Below are positions 22,125 to 28,520 of a stretch of 28,520 nt of DNA, one piece after another (the first letter of the stretch is position 1; each line of letters begins with the position of its first letter). The notes beneath the pieces were generated by a model that worked only from the letters and a program-made list of their open reading frames with translations, did not search any database and had not been told where the DNA came from. The position numbers and the translations under genes are program-made. This stretch comes from a virus. Its lineage: Duplodnaviria; Heunggongvirae; Uroviricota; Caudoviricetes. The stretch covers positions 1 to 28,520 of IMG/VR virus record IMGVR_UViG_2657245664_000013; one strand, 5' to 3'.

Positions 22125-23343
22125 CGTTCTTTTCCTCTTTGCCTTTCGTATCTTTAAAGTTATTCAACGGATTTGCTGCATTTACGCTGACCAGCATTTC
22201 ATCCAGACCGTCAACCGGGTTCATATCCTCAAATGCCCTGGCTTCATTCCGACTCATCCAGCCATCTGTAATGGCAAAGTGATAGAACTGCGCACGCTCC
22301 TGTGGGGTCCCACGGAGCAACCCCGTGAGGTTGAAACGAACGTAATACCCGGCAGCCCGTTCTGTACGGGTAAACAGGCGACGGTTAAGCTCCTGCTCCC
22401 AGTTCGCAACCCAGGGCATCATCGTGTAGCGAACAAACTGAATCGCCTGCTGCGTAATATTCGAAAATGTGGCTTTTTCCAGGTCATTAATCATGTGCGC
22501 CGGGACATTAAAAATCCCGGCAATCATCGACCGGTTCAGCTTGGTCATATCAATGATCTGAGCATCCACCGGAGAAACTGTCAGAGCGCGGTAATCCAGT
22601 TGCGCAGGCAGCAACATGGTTTTATTTTCCTGGCTGCGAAGCGCTGTCACCGCCCGCTGCCACATATTTTTAAGCCTGCCCCAGCTTTGTTCGTTCAGTT
22701 CATTTTTCACAGAAATAATACCGGCAGGACGGGCATTACCGTTAAAAAAGGCGCTGGTATACTGCTGGCCACTCATTCCCATACCAATGGTTTCAGCATG
22801 CTGCATGATCGGGCTCAGTCCCATTTTCTGATTGTTTCCCAGCGCCCTGATATGGATCATGTCGTCCGGACTTACCGCAAATGCACCCTCTTCGTTATAC
22901 ACCCCGTAAGTATGACGCCCACCGGTGTTAAGTAACGTGGTTTCCCATGGCATACAGCATTCAAGGCTGGTAACCTCTCCACGACGATTACGTTTTACCC
23001 ACGTATAACCATTGCCCCACCCCAGCACATGACGCTGCTTCAGTTCCCGCCACTTATAGCTGGTCTGCCAGGCATTAGGTTCATCATGAACGAGCCAGAA
23101 CAACGGATGATCGCGTGCCGGCTGAACATGCTCATTCGTTTTTCGCATCACATGCAGGGGCATCTGAGCCACACTGGATGAAATAACATAAATACAGGCA
23201 TAGACAGCAGCCAGCTTCATGGATGTTTCCGGACTGACATACACATCCCGGGCAAAAATATTATCCGTCTCAGCGGCCTCTCCGGTTACCGGAACCGAGG
23301 GATTTTCCAGAGGCTCACTGCGAAACAGAGCATCAAGAAGCAT
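22117..23343 (-). CDS. Portal protein (HK97 family)
   Basis: 408 aa. Positioned between terL and the protease, with the SD GAGGAG 7 nt upstream of the ATG. C-terminus is acidic (KGKEEKNDE). Confidence 0.92.
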   Translation of the reverse strand: MLLDALFRSEPLENPSVPVTGEAAETDNIFARDVYVSPETSMKLAAVYACIYVISSSVAQMPLHVMRKTNEHVQPARDHPLFWLVHDEPNAWQTSYKWRELKQRHVLGWGNGYTWVKRNRRGEVTSLECCMPWETTLLNTGGRHTYGVYNEEGAFAVSPDDMIHIRALGNNQKMGLSPIMQHAETIGMGMSGQQYTSAFFNGNARPAGIISVKNELNEQSWGRLKNMWQRAVTALRSQENKTMLLPAQLDYRALTVSPVDAQIIDMTKLNRSMIAGIFNVPAHMINDLEKATFSNITQQAIQFVRYTMMPWVANWEQELNRRLFTRTERAAGYYVRFNLTGLLRGTPQERAQFYHFAITDGWMSRNEARAFEDMNPVDGLDEMLVSVNAANPLNNFKDTKGKEEKNDE

Positions 23344-23473
23344 GTTTTCTCCTCATGGACACCACCAGTGCATAAAGCAGCAACAAACAGCCCGACAGCA
23401 TCAGAGACGCTGGCAGACCTGCATACAGATAAACGCCAGCAGTGAGCAAACCGAAACCGATCAGCCCGGTCAT
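23333..23473 (-). CDS. Hypothetical small hydrophobic ORF (46 aa) between terL and portal
   Basis: MTGLIGFGLLTAGVYLYAGLPASLMLSGCLLLLYALVVSMRRKHAS. Starts 18 nt after the terL stop and ends overlapping the portal start. No clear SD, so it may be spurious. Confidence 0.25.
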   Translation of the reverse strand: MTGLIGFGLLTAGVYLYAGLPASLMLSGCLLLLYALVVSMRRKHAS

Positions 23474-23490
23474 ATCAGTAATAAGCTGTT

Positions 23491-25248
23491 TCACAGAATT
23501 AACAGGTCCTCATCAGGATCAAGCGTGGACAGAAAGTCATTCACGCCCCCTCCATTTACCAGAAAGCGGCTCATGGCTGTAAAAAGCGCAACAGGGCCGT
23601 CGATTTTGGCTTCCGGCGTGGATTTATTCGGGAAGATGTTGTCGTTTTTGTCCGGTTTTACAGTAACGTTAGACATCATCCAGTTCATGACCGGATGATT
23701 GCTGTGATGGAAACGCCCGGCATAAACCAGTGATTCCGTTTCCTTCATGGCCTCTGACAGATTGCGGACCGTCTGCGGAACCTCCACCAGCGGTATCCCT
23801 TCTTCAGCCAGTGCCAGGCTGAACTGCATCGCGCTCCACGGGTCAAATCCCAGTTCCCTGAGGTTTTCACCACCAATCCATTCCAGTAAGTCATTTTTTA
23901 TCTGAGCATGATCGATAACATCACCATCCGTCAGAATCAGCTTATCCATCTCCGCCCACTTCCGGTAAAGTTCTGCCTGCTGCCGCGAGCATCGTTCCAG
24001 CCGTCCCTCCGGAAGCCAGAATTTAAAATCGGCATGAACATGCCCGTTATCCGTTCGCCAGAGTTTTGCCGCCGCACAGATATCAATCTTATGAGCAAGG
24101 TCAACGCCGACCCACATGGGATACGTTTTCAGCTCATGTCGTGGGGCAATGTATTCGCACTTCTCCCACTTAATCATGTCCATCCAGGCAGACTCTGCTG
24201 TTACCCACACATTCATGTGTTTGGTAAAAAAATTCACCCGCGCAGAGACCTGTTCTTTCGCTTTTTTCGCCAGGCGACGCAGATCATCCCAGCGTTTACA
24301 GATGCCCAGGCCGGGATTCGCTTTCTGCCAGACCGTTTCATCAAACGGATCATCTCCCTCATCGAGGGTGTAAATAATCGCAAAGTAGGAGTCGTCTTTT
24401 ACCGCGCCCTCCACGTCGCTGTTATAGCCACGCAATACCTTGATGGCGTAATCACGCTGCTCGTAACAAATCCCTTCCTTGTTAAACCCTGCCGTGGTGA
24501 TACCAAATAAAAGGGACTGCAGACGGGCACCGGTTGCCGTTTCCAGAACGTCCCACACGTCACGGGTTTTATGTGCATGCAGCTCATCAATAATGGCGCA
24601 GTGGATGTTCAGACCATCTAGGTTGTTTGCATCCGAAGAAAGCGGTTCAAATTTTGATGCGCTCTGCTCCTGGTAAATCGCCAGCTTGTTGAAATCAAAC
24701 AACCGCCCGAGTGTCGACCGGGCTTTTCTGACCATATTTTTGGCGTCTTCAAACACGATTCTGGCCTGGTCACGCGTGGTTGCGGCTGAATACACCTCAG
24801 CTCCGCCTTCACCATCTGCCCCCGTCATATACAGGCCGATACCCGATGACAGAGTTGATTTTGCGTTTTTACGGGCGACTTCGTTGTACGCCGTCCGGAA
24901 CCGGCGCACCATCACCGGACGTCCGCTGCCATCGCTGCGCATGACAACTTCCCCGGTCTCTTCATTGACCAGCGGAATGACAAAACCAAAAATATTAATG
25001 AGGATAAATACATGCCAGTCCATCAACTCAATGGGCTGGCCTGCCAGCGCCCCTTTTACATGAGGCACAAATTTGTAGAAATTCAGGATGTGCTGCGCAC
25101 GGGGTTCACTGAAATAAATCCCCCGCTCTTCGCCGTACTTCAGATCATCAAGAAAACGCTGGCAGGCCAGGCGGACAAATTCGCCAGCAACAATTTCTCC
25201 TGCAACAACACGTTCGGCGTAGCGGATCCCGTCAGCCACTTTTGCCAT
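23491..25248 (-). CDS. terL: Terminase large subunit
   Basis: 585 aa. N-terminal ATPase region (deviant P-loop VARKNAKS, Walker-B-like IIDELHA) and a C-terminal nuclease domain. Start overlaps the terS stop. Confidence 0.92.
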   Translation of the reverse strand: MAKVADGIRYAERVVAGEIVAGEFVRLACQRFLDDLKYGEERGIYFSEPRAQHILNFYKFVPHVKGALAGQPIELMDWHVFILINIFGFVIPLVNEETGEVVMRSDGSGRPVMVRRFRTAYNEVARKNAKSTLSSGIGLYMTGADGEGGAEVYSAATTRDQARIVFEDAKNMVRKARSTLGRLFDFNKLAIYQEQSASKFEPLSSDANNLDGLNIHCAIIDELHAHKTRDVWDVLETATGARLQSLLFGITTAGFNKEGICYEQRDYAIKVLRGYNSDVEGAVKDDSYFAIIYTLDEGDDPFDETVWQKANPGLGICKRWDDLRRLAKKAKEQVSARVNFFTKHMNVWVTAESAWMDMIKWEKCEYIAPRHELKTYPMWVGVDLAHKIDICAAAKLWRTDNGHVHADFKFWLPEGRLERCSRQQAELYRKWAEMDKLILTDGDVIDHAQIKNDLLEWIGGENLRELGFDPWSAMQFSLALAEEGIPLVEVPQTVRNLSEAMKETESLVYAGRFHHSNHPVMNWMMSNVTVKPDKNDNIFPNKSTPEAKIDGPVALFTAMSRFLVNGGGVNDFLSTLDPDEDLLIL

Positions 25249-25730
25249 CAGTCTCTCGCTTTTAAAAGCTCCGCCAGCGGATCAACATCATCCGGTCCGG
25301 CGATATTTACTTTAGCCCGGCTTGCCGGTGACATACCAAACTCTGCAAGCATTGCCCGGATCCGCTTCCAGGCATCCGCTTTCATTGCCGCCGCGGGGTG
25401 CGCCTTAATCAGTACATCACCGCTCTGCGTTTTCGTGCGGTAGGTATACCCCTCAACATCGAGTGTTTCGCAGTGATGCCGATATTCGGTGTAGGCTTCC
25501 ACCAGCAACTCGAGCGCACGCGCATCAAGCTGAGAAATGATCCCTTCCGCATTCAGCTCTTCCGCCATTCGCCTGAACCAGTACTTCCCCTGAGCCCCTA
25601 AATGCTGCGGAATTTTAGGAAGACCTTTTTCATCCTTTTTAGCGGTTTTTTTGTGGTCTTTAACGGGGCGCTTTGAGGGGTTGCCTCGAATCAAATGCAG
25701 GCGTGGCGGGGTTTTCGGAGGTCCTGACAT
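25248..25730 (-). CDS. terS: Terminase small subunit (P27 family)
   Basis: 160 aa with a basic N-terminus (KTPPRLHLIRGNPSKRPVKDHKK), directly upstream of terL and downstream of the HNH gene, as is typical for HK97-like cos phages. Confidence 0.88.
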   Translation of the reverse strand: MSGPPKTPPRLHLIRGNPSKRPVKDHKKTAKKDEKGLPKIPQHLGAQGKYWFRRMAEELNAEGIISQLDARALELLVEAYTEYRHHCETLDVEGYTYRTKTQSGDVLIKAHPAAAMKADAWKRIRAMLAEFGMSPASRAKVNIAGPDDVDPLAELLKARD

Positions 25731-25789
25731 AATCGGTCTTACCTATCAATCGTTTGTTCACATTTCCAAAAAAAAGTTTTCGAACCTGC

Positions 25790-25865
25790 GGCGATGTGAG
25801 GAAGGGTCAGGCGGCGGTACTGAGCAGCCAGGGTTGCAGAGATTTGACCCGCCCCTCCCCTACAG
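25790..25865. other. Candidate cos (cohesive end / terminase recognition) region
   Basis: GC-rich dyad-symmetric element in the HNH-terS intergenic gap: GGGTCA (25804-25809) ... TGACCC (25845-25850) flanking GGCGGCGG, reminiscent of lambdoid cosN (GGGCGGCG...). An A8 run lies at 25769-25776. Confidence 0.35.
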
Positions 25866-25878
25866 ATGGGAACTGTTA

Positions 25879-26229
25879 TCAATTGATGCGTTCGCGCGCT
25901 GTTTTTGCTTTATGACAGGGCCAGCACAGACTCTGCAGGTTACTGTCTGCATCCGTGCCACCATGAGCTTTCGGAATGATGTGGTCCACAGTTCTGGCTT
26001 CAACGGCTCTCCCATTGCGCAGGCAGTTCTGACACAGATGATTATCACGCTTCAGTATGCGCGCACGTATGGCATCCCATTTCGAGCCATAGCCACGCTG
26101 GTGGCGGCTCAGTCCGCGTTGATGCTGTACCCATCCTTCGCCACGATGTTTATCGCAGTAACCAGAACTGTCTGTGGTTGTACCTGCACATCCACGCTTA
26201 CGGCAGGCGCGTGGGATTCGTGATGGCAT
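25879..26229 (-). CDS. HNH endonuclease (packaging-associated)
   Basis: 116 aa with an HNH/zinc-finger signature (CxxC ... DHIIPKAHGGTDADSNLQSLCWPCH). Immediately upstream of terS. Confidence 0.9.
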   Translation of the reverse strand: MPSRIPRACRKRGCAGTTTDSSGYCDKHRGEGWVQHQRGLSRHQRGYGSKWDAIRARILKRDNHLCQNCLRNGRAVEARTVDHIIPKAHGGTDADSNLQSLCWPCHKAKTARERIN

Positions 26230-27515: not shown

Positions 27516-28520
27516 TTATTTCCCCACCAGCTCGTTTATCTCTTTCACTGTCTGGTTAAACCGCTCTGACTCAAGCTCAACACCTAAGGCCCGACGCCCC
27601 AGCGCCATTGCTGCTTTTATTGTGGAACCGGATCCCATAAAAAAATCAGCAACCAGATCACCTGGTCGACTACTGGCATTGATTATTTGCCTGAGCATAT
27701 CCGCCGGTTTCTCACACGGATGTTTCCCCGGGTAGAACTGAACGGGTTTATGCATCCAGACATCGGTATAAGGCACGGAGACTGATACGGAGAAATAGCG
27801 CCGGAGAGATTTAAACTCATCCAGCAATTCAGAATATTTGCGATTCAGTGAATCATAAGATGCCACCAGCTGGTGGTGTGGTTGTTCCAGTTGTTGTTCC
27901 TGAAACTTCTCTGCCGCTATACGGGAAAACAGTGCCTGTAACTTCCGATAGTCAGCCTCATTCGGCAACTGCCACTGACTGGCACCAAACCAGTGGGAAA
28001 CCATATTTTTCTTACCTGTGGCTTCGGCAATTTGTTTTGCCGTTATACCCAGTTCGGCACGAGCATCCCTGAAATACGATATCAGCGGTGCCATTATGTG
28101 CTGTTTGAGTTCCCTTTCTTTTGCTGCATAGCCGTCACTTTTGCCGCGATATGGCCCCTGGTAATGTTCAGCAAACAGAACGCGCTCTGTGGCAGGAAAA
28201 TATGCGCGCAGACTTTCTTTATTACACCCATTCCAACGTCCGGACGGCTTCGCCCAGATGATATGGTTAAGCACGTTGAAACGTTCACGCATCATGATCT
28301 CAATATCAGATGCCAGGCGATGTCCACAGAACAGGTAAAGGCTTCCGGCAGGTTTCAACACCCGCCAGAACTGGGCCAGACAGTGATCCAGCCACTTAAG
28401 GTAATCTTCGTCCCCTTTCCACTGATTGTCCCAACCGTTGGGTTTCACCTTGAAGTACGGCGGATCGGTAACAATCAGGTCAATGGAATCATCAGGCAGG
28501 GACTGAATAAAATGCAGGCA
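27516..28520 (-). CDS. DNA methyltransferase (beta-class N6-adenine / N4-cytosine type), 5'-truncated by the window edge
   Basis: The reading frame stays open to the window end. Translating the last bases gives ...[16 protein letters not shown] (DPPY motif IV), and the C-terminal part has the AdoMet motif DFFMGSGST. The order DPPY before FxGxG indicates beta-class. Confidence 0.88.

What the first reader, a model, noticed from the sequence alone, without database searches (positions are those of the whole stretch)
25731..25878. Candidate cos site with dyad symmetry in the HNH-terS intergenic region
HNH endonuclease followed by terS and terL is the arrangement found in HK97-like cos phages, where the HNH protein assists terminase cleavage. 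The 148-bp gap contains a GC-rich symmetric element (GGGTCA ... GGCGGCGG ... TGACCC) resembling lambdoid cosN cores, plus an A-run that could help bending.
Basis: partly seen in the sequence, partly recalled or inferred. Interest (0 to 1): 0.45.

Follow-up and report, generated by a model that had tools for sequence, protein, structure and literature searches.

The report
HK97/P27-type prophage cos site
The 148-bp gap between the HNH and small-terminase genes of this common E. coli prophage is very probably its DNA-packaging cut site (cos), an ordinary member of the HK97/phiP27 class, but the "dyad symmetry" used to spot it is a chance feature.

Summary
All genes lie on the minus strand: HNH 26229-25879, gap, terS 25730-25248, terL.

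The cos call is strongly supported by homology. On the gene strand the gap aligns without gaps to mapped cos sites: a G-rich box (GGGGAGGGGCGGGTCAAATC, 25860-25841), a 24-nt spacer ending GAC or TAC, then a 10-nt GC-rich bracket.

That bracket matches five independent mappings:
- the 10-nt 3' overhang of HK97;
- the cos found by run-off sequencing in SfI;
- the annotated cos of phiP27;
- the record break of Proteus phage Pm34;
- both ends of Pantoea phage AH07.

In the window the bracket is CGCCGCCTGA, which is plus-strand TCAGGCGGCG at 25807-25816.

It lies where HK97 TerS binds a GC block and an A-tract.

The GGGTCA/TGACCC dyad is at chance level. It is not centred on the cut and is absent from relatives.

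About 150 bp of this gap is also carried, without HNH or terS, by PICI-like islands in E. coli.

Verdict: a new member of a known kind. No physical ends were measured for this prophage.

The parts
25879..26229 (-). HNH endonuclease gene (gp74-like packaging accessory nuclease), directly upstream of cos
   Evidence: Pfam PF01844, E=1.9e-16. It is 91% identical to phiP27 L34, 75% to SfV orf53, and 37% over 70 aa to HK97 gp74 (E=6e-12). PHROG 144 HNH endonuclease.
25732..25884 (-). Whole cos cassette (about 150 bp): the stretch that PICI-like islands share with the window although they lack HNH and terS
   Evidence: Alignment A4. Homology to L013, L019, L033 and L065 starts at AATTGATAAC (the last HNH codons) and ends just before the terS ATG. 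It is absent on both sides.
25841..25860 (-). G-box GGGGAGGGGCGGGTCAAATC. A conserved upstream element, proposed to be a cosQ-like site read by TerL/HNH (inferred).
   Evidence: Present at the same distance from the cut in HK97, phiP27, SfV, SfI, Pm34 and mEp235. Mean pairwise identity is 0.74, against 0.41 and 0.48 for the flanking DNA, in 37 TerS-selected relatives. PhiR49_2 keeps the cassette from this box onward with no HNH gene upstream.
25823..25840 (-). Spacer of variable sequence and fixed length
   Evidence: Mean pairwise identity is 0.48. The length is constant in all seven reference phages: 26 nt from TCAAA to the bracket.
25817..25822 (-). Conserved left flank of the cut, CAGTAC (AGGAC in most relatives)
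   Evidence: Mean pairwise identity 0.82. The Pm34 and AH07 records end exactly after the matching GAC.
25807..25816 (-). Predicted cohesive end, a 10-nt 3' overhang: 5'-CGCCGCCTGA-3' on the gene (minus) strand, TCAGGCGGCG on the plus strand. Predicted nicks: minus strand between 25807 and 25806, plus strand between 25816 and 25817.
   Evidence: Same register as the last 10 nt of the HK97 record, CGCCGCCAAA (10-nt 3' overhang). Also matches SfI TGCCCGCCCC found by run-off sequencing, the phiP27 'cos-site' feature CGCCCGCCCC, the Pm34 record break at its 5' edge, and the AH07 record ends at both edges. The first 8 nt have mean pairwise identity 0.95 across 37 relatives.
25776..25798 (-). Conserved block +9..+31, CACATCGCCGCAGGTTCGAAAAC: proposed TerS recognition site (cosB equivalent; inferred)
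   Evidence: Mean pairwise identity 0.86 in non-coding DNA, against 0.73 at terS third codon positions. It changes with the TerS lineage while the left half of cos does not. HK97 TerS binds +15..+29 on the same side of the cut.
25768..25775 (-).
   Evidence: Conserved as T6-T8 in all 39 TerS-selected loci. In HK97 an A-tract next to a C:G pair is essential for TerS binding, read through DNA shape.
25248..25730 (-). terS, P27-family small terminase
   Evidence: PF05119, E=2.4e-25. It is 74% identical to mEp235 TerS and 65% to Pm34 TerS. There is no BLASTP similarity to HK97 gp1.
23491..25248 (-). terL, HK97-type large terminase (ATPase plus nuclease)
   Evidence: PF03354 plus PF20441. It is 87% identical to mEp235, 37% to phiP27 and SfV, and 28% to HK97 gp2 (E=2e-40).

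Best explanation
The HNH-terS gap holds the prophage's cos site, of the HK97/phiP27 class. This is the proposed mechanism.

1. After induction, concatemeric DNA is recognised by the P27-family TerS at the conserved block just downstream of the cut. That block is CACATCGCCGCAGGTTCGAAAAC followed by T8, at +9..+39 (window 25798-25768).
2. TerL, helped by the adjacent HNH protein, makes two nicks 10 bp apart at GTAC^CGCCGCCTGA^CCC. This leaves 10-nt 3' overhangs (window 25807-25816).
3. Packaging then runs towards terS/terL, that is towards lower window coordinates, and stops at the next cos.
4. There the upstream G-box (25860-25841) is the best candidate for a termination or nuclease-positioning signal.

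Shown here: in-register sequence homology to mapped sites, block-wise conservation, modular co-variation with the proteins, and capture of the cassette by satellites. Inferred: the exact nick positions, the overhang polarity, which protein reads which block, and which nuclease cuts which strand.
For: (1) Register. In the window, Pm34, HK97, SfI, SfV, phiP27 and mEp235, the 10-nt bracket starts exactly 26 nt after the TCAAA of the G-box.

(2) Independent mappings of that bracket:
- HK97's record ends with it, and HK97 ends are 10-nt 3' overhangs with +1 equal to record base 1.
- In SfI, 10 nt (TGCCCGCCCC) were missing from run-off sequences of virion DNA and they lie at the end of its record.
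- phiP27 has an annotated cos-site.
- Pm34's TerS is 65% identical to the window's, and its linear record breaks at GGAC|CGCC.
- AH07's linear record ends at ...CCTGAC and starts at +1.

(3) Proteins. HNH, TerL, portal, S78 protease and HK97-fold capsid all fit the HK97-type packaging module.

(4) Conservation in 39 loci chosen by TerS protein only, from Citrobacter to Xenorhabdus. Mean pairwise identity is 0.95 for the first 8 nt of the overhang, 0.86 for the right block, 0.74 for the G-box and 0.48 for the spacer.

(5) Modularity. The left half (G-box plus cut) is shared with HK97, whose TerS shows no sequence similarity. The right half follows the TerS lineage.

(6) The 150-bp cassette alone is carried by PICI-like islands. 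It is also kept in PhiR49_2, which has no HNH gene upstream.

(7) Close relatives are viable phages. Evi (TerS 96% identical) and Fraca form plaques.

(8) There is no promoter, terminator, Rfam or RNA-folding signal that would explain the conservation otherwise.
Against: No physical end data exist for this prophage or for any phage with an identical cos, so the nick positions are transferred by homology. The window's overhang sequence (CGCCGCCTGA) differs from every mapped one at 3 to 5 of 10 positions. How the Pm34 and AH07 depositors fixed their record ends is not documented in the papers I could read. The original phiP27 and SfV papers were not available. The TerS here shows no detectable sequence similarity to HK97 TerS, the only one with a solved DNA complex. 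An AlphaFold model (pLDDT 65) gave no usable fold match. The TerS-site assignment is therefore by position and architecture only, and the conserved block lies about 8-10 bp further from the cut than in HK97.
Confidence: 0.85

Rival explanations
1. The cos site is in this gap, but cleavage is offset from 25807-25816 or gives an overhang of a different length. The window's lineage would then have diverged from the mapped relatives.
For: The overhang sequence differs from the mapped ones, and positions 9-10 of the bracket vary among relatives (TGA, TAA, TAG, TTA). The SfV record breaks 7 nt upstream of the bracket rather than at its edge.
Against: Spacing from the G-box is invariant. The flanking (G/T)AC and CGCCGCC are nearly invariant. 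The nearest lineage with a cos-delimited record (Pm34) breaks exactly at the predicted 5' edge.
Confidence: 0.09
2. The conserved gap is a gene-expression element for the late operon (a terS leader, RNA structure or transcription signal). In this reading the phage packages by a headful (pac) mechanism or uses a cos site elsewhere.
For: The last roughly 30 nt before the terS ATG (RBS region) are conserved (identity 0.86). Late transcripts must cross this gap.
Against: There are no promoter-like or terminator-like sites and no Rfam match. The RNA folding energy equals that of shuffles (z=0.07). The cassette occurs in islands with no terS downstream. TerL is of the HK97/P27 cos type. Relatives' virion-derived records break here.
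Confidence: 0.03
3. The sequence is a genuine cos by descent, but this prophage copy is defective. The site would be a relic that is never cut.
For: Only 28.5 kb of the prophage is visible. Inducibility cannot be judged from sequence.
Against: All packaging and head genes are intact ORFs with full-length family matches. The 171-nt region is 100% identical in many complete E. coli genomes and is present in 920 of 5426. Near-identical modules occur in the plaque-forming phage Evi.
Confidence: 0.1

Closest known systems
Bacteriophage HK97 cos (gp1 TerS, gp2 TerL, gp74 HNH; 10-nt 3' overhangs)
   Same: The gene order is HNH, cos, terS, terL. TerL (E=2e-40) and HNH (E=6e-12) are homologous. The G-box, the 24-nt spacer, the GAC and the overhang beginning CGCCGCC are in the same register. 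A GC block followed by an A/T-tract lies downstream, where HK97 TerS binds (+15..+29).
   Different: TerS has no detectable sequence similarity to gp1, which has no Pfam family. The last three overhang bases differ (TGA against AAA). The downstream conserved block is unrelated in sequence and lies about 8-10 bp further from the cut.
cos of phiP27, SfV and SfI (P27-family TerS phages of E. coli and Shigella)
   Same: The TerS family is the same (PF05119). HNH is 91% identical to phiP27's. The DNA from the HNH 3' end through the G-box and spacer is about 81% identical to phiP27. The bracket position is identical, with a 10-nt cos shown experimentally for SfI.
   Different: TerS is only about 18-24% identical and TerL about 37%. 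The overhang is CGCCGCCTGA rather than (C/T)GCCCGCCCC. The right half is replaced by the mEp235/Pm34-type block, so the window is a mosaic whose junction lies at cos.
mEp235, Fraca and Proteus phage Pm34 lineage (Hendrixvirinae)
   Same: TerS is 65-74% identical and TerL 87% identical (mEp235). The right-hand block CACATC(G/A)CCGCAGGTT(A/C)GAAAAC-T6-8 and the overhang start CGCC are the same.
   Different: The HNH side is of another type. Relatives carry a GGGGTCCCCC palindrome after the T-run, which the window lacks. Only Pm34's record is cos-delimited, and I could read no published end mapping for it.
Bacteriophage lambda cos (cosQ-cosN-cosB; 5' overhangs, 12 nt from my own knowledge)
   Same: The functional layout is analogous: an upstream element, a nick site, and a downstream TerS-binding region next to terS (lambda layout as summarised). 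The cohesive end also contains the heptamer GGCGGCG (lambda cosN sequence from my own knowledge).
   Different: Overhang polarity and length differ. There is no Nu1-type TerS, no R-site repeats, no symmetry about the cut, and an HNH partner is present. It is not a member of this family.
Staphylococcal cos-type SaPIs (e.g. SaPIbov5) packaged by HNH-dependent cos phages
   Same: A satellite carries its helper's cos site and relies on a TerS/TerL/HNH helper machinery (background in the papers listed, and my own knowledge). This parallels the PICI-like islands that carry this cassette.
   Different: The hosts are Gram-positive and the sequences unrelated. Helper dependence of the E. coli islands was not tested here.

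Membership tests
HK97/P27-type 3'-overhang cos site | Lies between an HNH endonuclease gene and terS, at the junction of the lysis and packaging modules | tested here: met
   The order is methylase, holin, lysozyme, Rz, HNH, gap, TerS, TerL, portal, protease, capsid.
HK97/P27-type 3'-overhang cos site | Partner TerL and HNH homologous to HK97 gp2 and gp74 | tested here: met
   TerL against gp2: 28% identity, E=2e-40. HNH against gp74: 37% identity, E=6e-12. Similarity to phiP27, SfV and mEp235 is much higher.
HK97/P27-type 3'-overhang cos site | Sequence homology, in register, to cos sites with mapped ends (G-box, fixed spacer, GAC, 10-nt GC-rich bracket) | tested here: met
   The offset is identical (26 nt from TCAAA) in seven phages, with record breaks or annotation at the bracket edges in HK97, SfI, phiP27, Pm34 and AH07. 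The composite motif is found in 0 of 100 shuffles.
HK97/P27-type 3'-overhang cos site | Virion DNA has unique ends with 10-nt 3' cohesive extensions at this site | not testable with these tools
   This needs virion DNA. It is known only for relatives (HK97; SfI).
HK97/P27-type 3'-overhang cos site | TerS binding site a short distance downstream of the cut, made of a GC element plus an A-tract | tested here: inconclusive
   The architecture is present and highly conserved (+9..+39). Binding was not tested. TerS is not sequence-related to HK97 TerS, and the structure model was too poor to compare.
P27-family small terminase system | TerS matches Pfam PF05119 (Terminase_4) | tested here: met
   E=2.4e-25, 89 bits against a cut-off of 24.7. 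The phiP27 and SfV TerS match the same family.
Lambda-type cos (cosN with two-fold symmetry, 5' overhang, Nu1 TerS) | Partial two-fold rotational symmetry centred on the nick site | tested here: not met
Symmetry across the predicted cut equals that of shuffles (window p=0.33; median of 37 relatives 0.82).
Lambda-type cos (cosN with two-fold symmetry, 5' overhang, Nu1 TerS) | Nu1-type TerS with repeated R sites in cosB | tested here: not met
   TerS is PF05119 and matches no other Pfam family, so it is not Nu1-like. The gap holds no repeat family beyond 7-nt chance matches.
Headful (pac) packaging | Terminase of a pac lineage and no conserved unique cut site | tested here: not met
   TerL groups with the cos phages HK97, phiP27, SfV and mEp235. 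A conserved site homologous to mapped cos sites is present.

The most novel reading that the evidence does not exclude
The gap may be a portable, two-part cos cassette.

Its left half (G-box, spacer, nick region) is shared by phages with three TerS lineages that are unrelated or barely related. It would therefore be read by the conserved TerL/HNH pair. Its right half is swapped together with TerS, so cos itself is a recombination joint.

E. coli PICI-like islands at tRNA-Pro/yejM have captured the whole 150-bp cassette, while encoding a TerS-like protein of yet another family (DUF1441, PHROG 141). These islands would then be Gram-negative satellites that exploit HNH-dependent 3'-cos packaging. 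The prophage in this window would be a candidate helper.
Probability: 0.35. Interest if true: 0.55.

Novelty: new member of a known kind. Interest (0 to 1): 0.25.

Why it matters
It gives a base-pair-level prediction of the genome ends and packaging signals for a prophage family found in about 17% of complete E. coli genomes. That family includes relatives that carry Stx, such as phi467. The prediction is useful for annotation, for reading phage-particle sequencing coverage, and for building cos-based transducing vectors.

The comparative picture also yields testable hypotheses for a class in which only the HK97 TerS-DNA contact has been solved. A left half is conserved across TerS lineages, a right half tracks TerS, and satellites carry the cassette alone. 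From this one can ask which protein reads which part of a 3'-cos site.

Tried and rejected
- **TerS fold.** I predicted the TerS structure from 36 homologues to compare it with HK97 TerS. Mean pLDDT was 65 and pTM 0.49, and Foldseek against the PDB gave nothing below E=0.2. This is inconclusive.
- **TerS sequence against the PDB.** A profile search with the TerS alignment found no terminase structure.
- **Other roles for the gap.** The promoter/terminator scan, Rfam search and RNA folding of the gap were all negative. I therefore rejected a regulatory-RNA or terminator reading.
- **Extended dyad.** The RNA fold pairs the G-box with the pyrimidine block after the cut. I tested this as DNA symmetry in the window and in 37 relatives; it is no better than shuffles, so I rejected it.
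- **Contig ends.** I looked for IMG/VR contigs ending at the predicted cut. Nine lie near contig ends, but none ends exactly at the cut.
- **Original papers.** The phiP27 and SfV papers and a Pm34 paper are not held, so the phiP27 cos rests on its GenBank feature and Pm34 on its record break.
- **First locus search.** The first attempt with a six-sequence TerS alignment failed for lack of a conserved stretch. I repeated it with four sequences.
- **Uninformative records.** The mEp235, Fraca and KLB28 records start at or near terS for convenience and say nothing about the ends.
- **Island DUF1441 protein.** It has no sequence match in the PDB, so no link to Rpp proteins could be shown.

Full report
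**1. The observation.** The window encodes everything on the minus strand. The order is DNA methylase, P21-type holin, lysozyme, Rz, HNH (26229-25879), a 148-bp gap (25878-25731), TerS (25730-25248), TerL (25248-23491), portal, S78 protease and HK97-fold capsid.

The dyad is weak.
- It has 6-nt arms 35 nt apart, one of 16 such inverted pairs in 301 bases.
- 74% of dinucleotide-preserving shuffles of the gap contain an inverted repeat with perfect arms at least that long.
- A local-alignment test for symmetry across the predicted cut gives p=0.33 in the window and a median of 0.82 in 37 relatives.
- The dyad centre is 15 nt away from the centre of the predicted overhang.

**2. What the gap is.** A megablast of the region against phage records hit phiP27, and an annotated 'cos-site' lies under the match. 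I then read the ends of related records and placed them on the gene strand. All fall into one register: a G-rich box ending in TCAAA, exactly 26 nt, then a 10-nt GC-rich bracket.
- HK97's record ends with the bracket (…GAC CGCCGCCAAA | GTTTGAA…). HK97 ends are 10-nt 3' overhangs. The published numbering (T16, C:G at 21, A:T at 24-29) fits record base 1 being +1.
- SfI's bracket, TGCCCGCCCC, is the 10 nt missing from run-off sequences of virion DNA. It ends the SfI record.
- phiP27's annotated cos, CGCCCGCCCC, is the bracket.
- Proteus phage Pm34 has a TerS 65% identical to the window's. Its linear record breaks at GGAC|CGCCCCCTTA, the 5' edge of the bracket.
- Pantoea phage AH07's linear record ends at …CCTGAC and begins at +1. 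It lacks the 10 nt altogether, as expected if the overhangs were polished away.

In the window the bracket is CGCCGCCTGA on the gene strand, which is plus-strand 25807-25816. The context is GTAC^CGCCGCCTGA^CCC. The composite motif occurs once in the window and never in 100 shuffles.

**3. Conservation without selection bias.** I collected 39 loci from one-genome-per-species bacterial assemblies, using the TerS protein only. They come from Citrobacter, Enterobacter, Leclercia, Proteus, Providencia, Morganella, Serratia, Pantoea, Klebsiella, Xenorhabdus and others, with TerS 49-73% identical to the window's. The upstream DNA aligns throughout.

Mean pairwise identity by block:

| Block | Identity |
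|---|---|
| DNA between the HNH stop and the G-box | 0.41 |
| G-box | 0.74 |
| Spacer | 0.48 |
| Left flank of the cut | 0.82 |
| First 8 nt of the bracket | 0.95 |
| +9..+31, CACATCGCCGCAGGTTCGAAAAC | 0.86 |
| T-run | 0.83 |
| terS third codon positions | 0.73 |

The nick region and the downstream block are therefore under stronger constraint than synonymous sites in the neighbouring gene.

**4. Modularity.** The window's HNH is 91% identical to phiP27's. Its TerS and TerL are 74% and 87% identical to mEp235's, and only 18-24% and 37% identical to those of phiP27 and SfV. The DNA follows the same split. It is phiP27-like up to the nick region and mEp235/Pm34-like from there on.

HK97 TerS shows no detectable similarity to P27-family TerS and has no Pfam family. 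Even so, HK97 shares the G-box, the spacing and the CGCCGCC of the overhang. The left half therefore tracks the conserved TerL/HNH pair, and the right half tracks TerS.

In HK97, TerS binds +15..+29. This is a C:G-containing element followed by an A-tract that is read by shape and is essential for binding. The window has a conserved GC block followed by GAAAAC-T8 at +16..+39. The architecture is the same, about one helical turn further out. No binding was tested.

**5. Natural 'deletion experiments'.**
- Six IMG/VR loci carry the cassette with no HNH upstream and no terS downstream. Homology to the window starts at the last HNH codons and ends just before the terS ATG, a stretch of about 150 bp.
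- These loci are 12-kb islands encoding an integrase, DUF927 primase, SSB, ProQ, PerC and a DUF1441 protein that matches PHROG 141 'terminase small subunit'. They have no structural genes.
- In E. coli STEC313 the island sits at tRNA-Pro next to yejM.
- Phage PhiR49_2 keeps the cassette from the G-box onward, with unrelated genes in place of HNH.

Both observations argue that the gap is a self-contained cis-acting element rather than a leader for terS.

**6. Alternatives.** There are no promoter-like or terminator-like sites, no Rfam family, and the RNA folding energy equals that of shuffles. TerL belongs with cos phages. Close relatives are viable: Evi (TerS 96% identical) and Fraca were isolated as plaque-forming temperate coliphages with HK97-type necks.

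The 171-nt region occurs in 920 of 5426 complete E. coli genomes. It is always chromosomal, and many copies are 100% identical.

**7. Limits.** Nick positions and overhang polarity are transferred from relatives. The window's overhang sequence is not identical to any mapped one. The basis for the Pm34 and AH07 record ends is undocumented in what I could read. The TerS fold comparison failed.

I put about 0.85 on 'this gap is the cos site of an HK97/P27-type system'. I put about 0.75 on the exact nicks at 25816/25817 (plus strand) and 25807/25806 (minus strand).

**8. Verdict.** This is a correct call of an ordinary feature: a new member of a known class of cos sites. The most interesting by-products are the mosaic junction at cos and the satellite-like islands that carry the cassette.

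Noticed in passing
L013:2090-2330 (also L019, L033, L065, L067, L113); L181:7100-18914 (E. coli STEC313, tRNA-Pro/yejM): PICI-like islands of about 12 kb carry the whole 150-bp cos cassette but no HNH, terS or structural genes. They encode an integrase, HTH regulator, Icd-like protein, DUF927 primase, SSB, ProQ and PerC. Their DUF1441 protein matches PHROG 141 'terminase small subunit', a different TerS family from the window's (PHROG 83). They are possible satellites of HNH-dependent 3'-cos phages.
   Followed up: partly
window 25800-25830: The cos site is a mosaic junction. The DNA and HNH on the upstream side are phiP27-like (HNH 91% aa identity). The DNA, TerS and TerL on the downstream side are mEp235-like (74% and 87%).
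   Followed up: yes
L176:1380-1500 (phage Evi, LR597642.1); L133/L132 (Providencia phage PSTRCR_117lys, MW358929.1): In Evi's record, the 3' end of HNH and the cos region are replaced by an inverted 117-nt copy of the terS 5' part. The 'circular' PSTRCR_117lys record lacks about 41 nt spanning the predicted cut. Both look like assembly artefacts at physical genome ends, which would fit ends at this site.
   Followed up: partly
L175:1380-1633 (phage PhiR49_2, PV340570.1): This close relative has no HNH gene upstream of cos; unrelated genes on the opposite strand abut the G-box. Yet the cassette from the G-box to terS is intact. I did not check whether an HNH gene sits elsewhere in that genome.
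   Followed up: no
window 25745-25767, compared with L134-L172: Most relatives have a GGGG(T/A)(C/A)CCCC palindrome right after the T-run. The window and its closest E. coli relatives have GGAAATGTGAACAAAC there instead. Its function is unknown.
   Followed up: no
window 27516-28448 (minus strand): An N6/N4 DNA methylase gene (PF01555) lies directly upstream of the holin. In the related phage phi467, stxB and two tRNA genes precede the lysis cassette at this position.
   Followed up: no
window 23333-23494 (minus strand): A 53-aa hydrophobic ORF lies between terL and portal. phiP27 and phi467 have a small gene annotated at the same place ('membrane protein' and 'hypothetical protein'). It has no Pfam match.
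   Followed up: no
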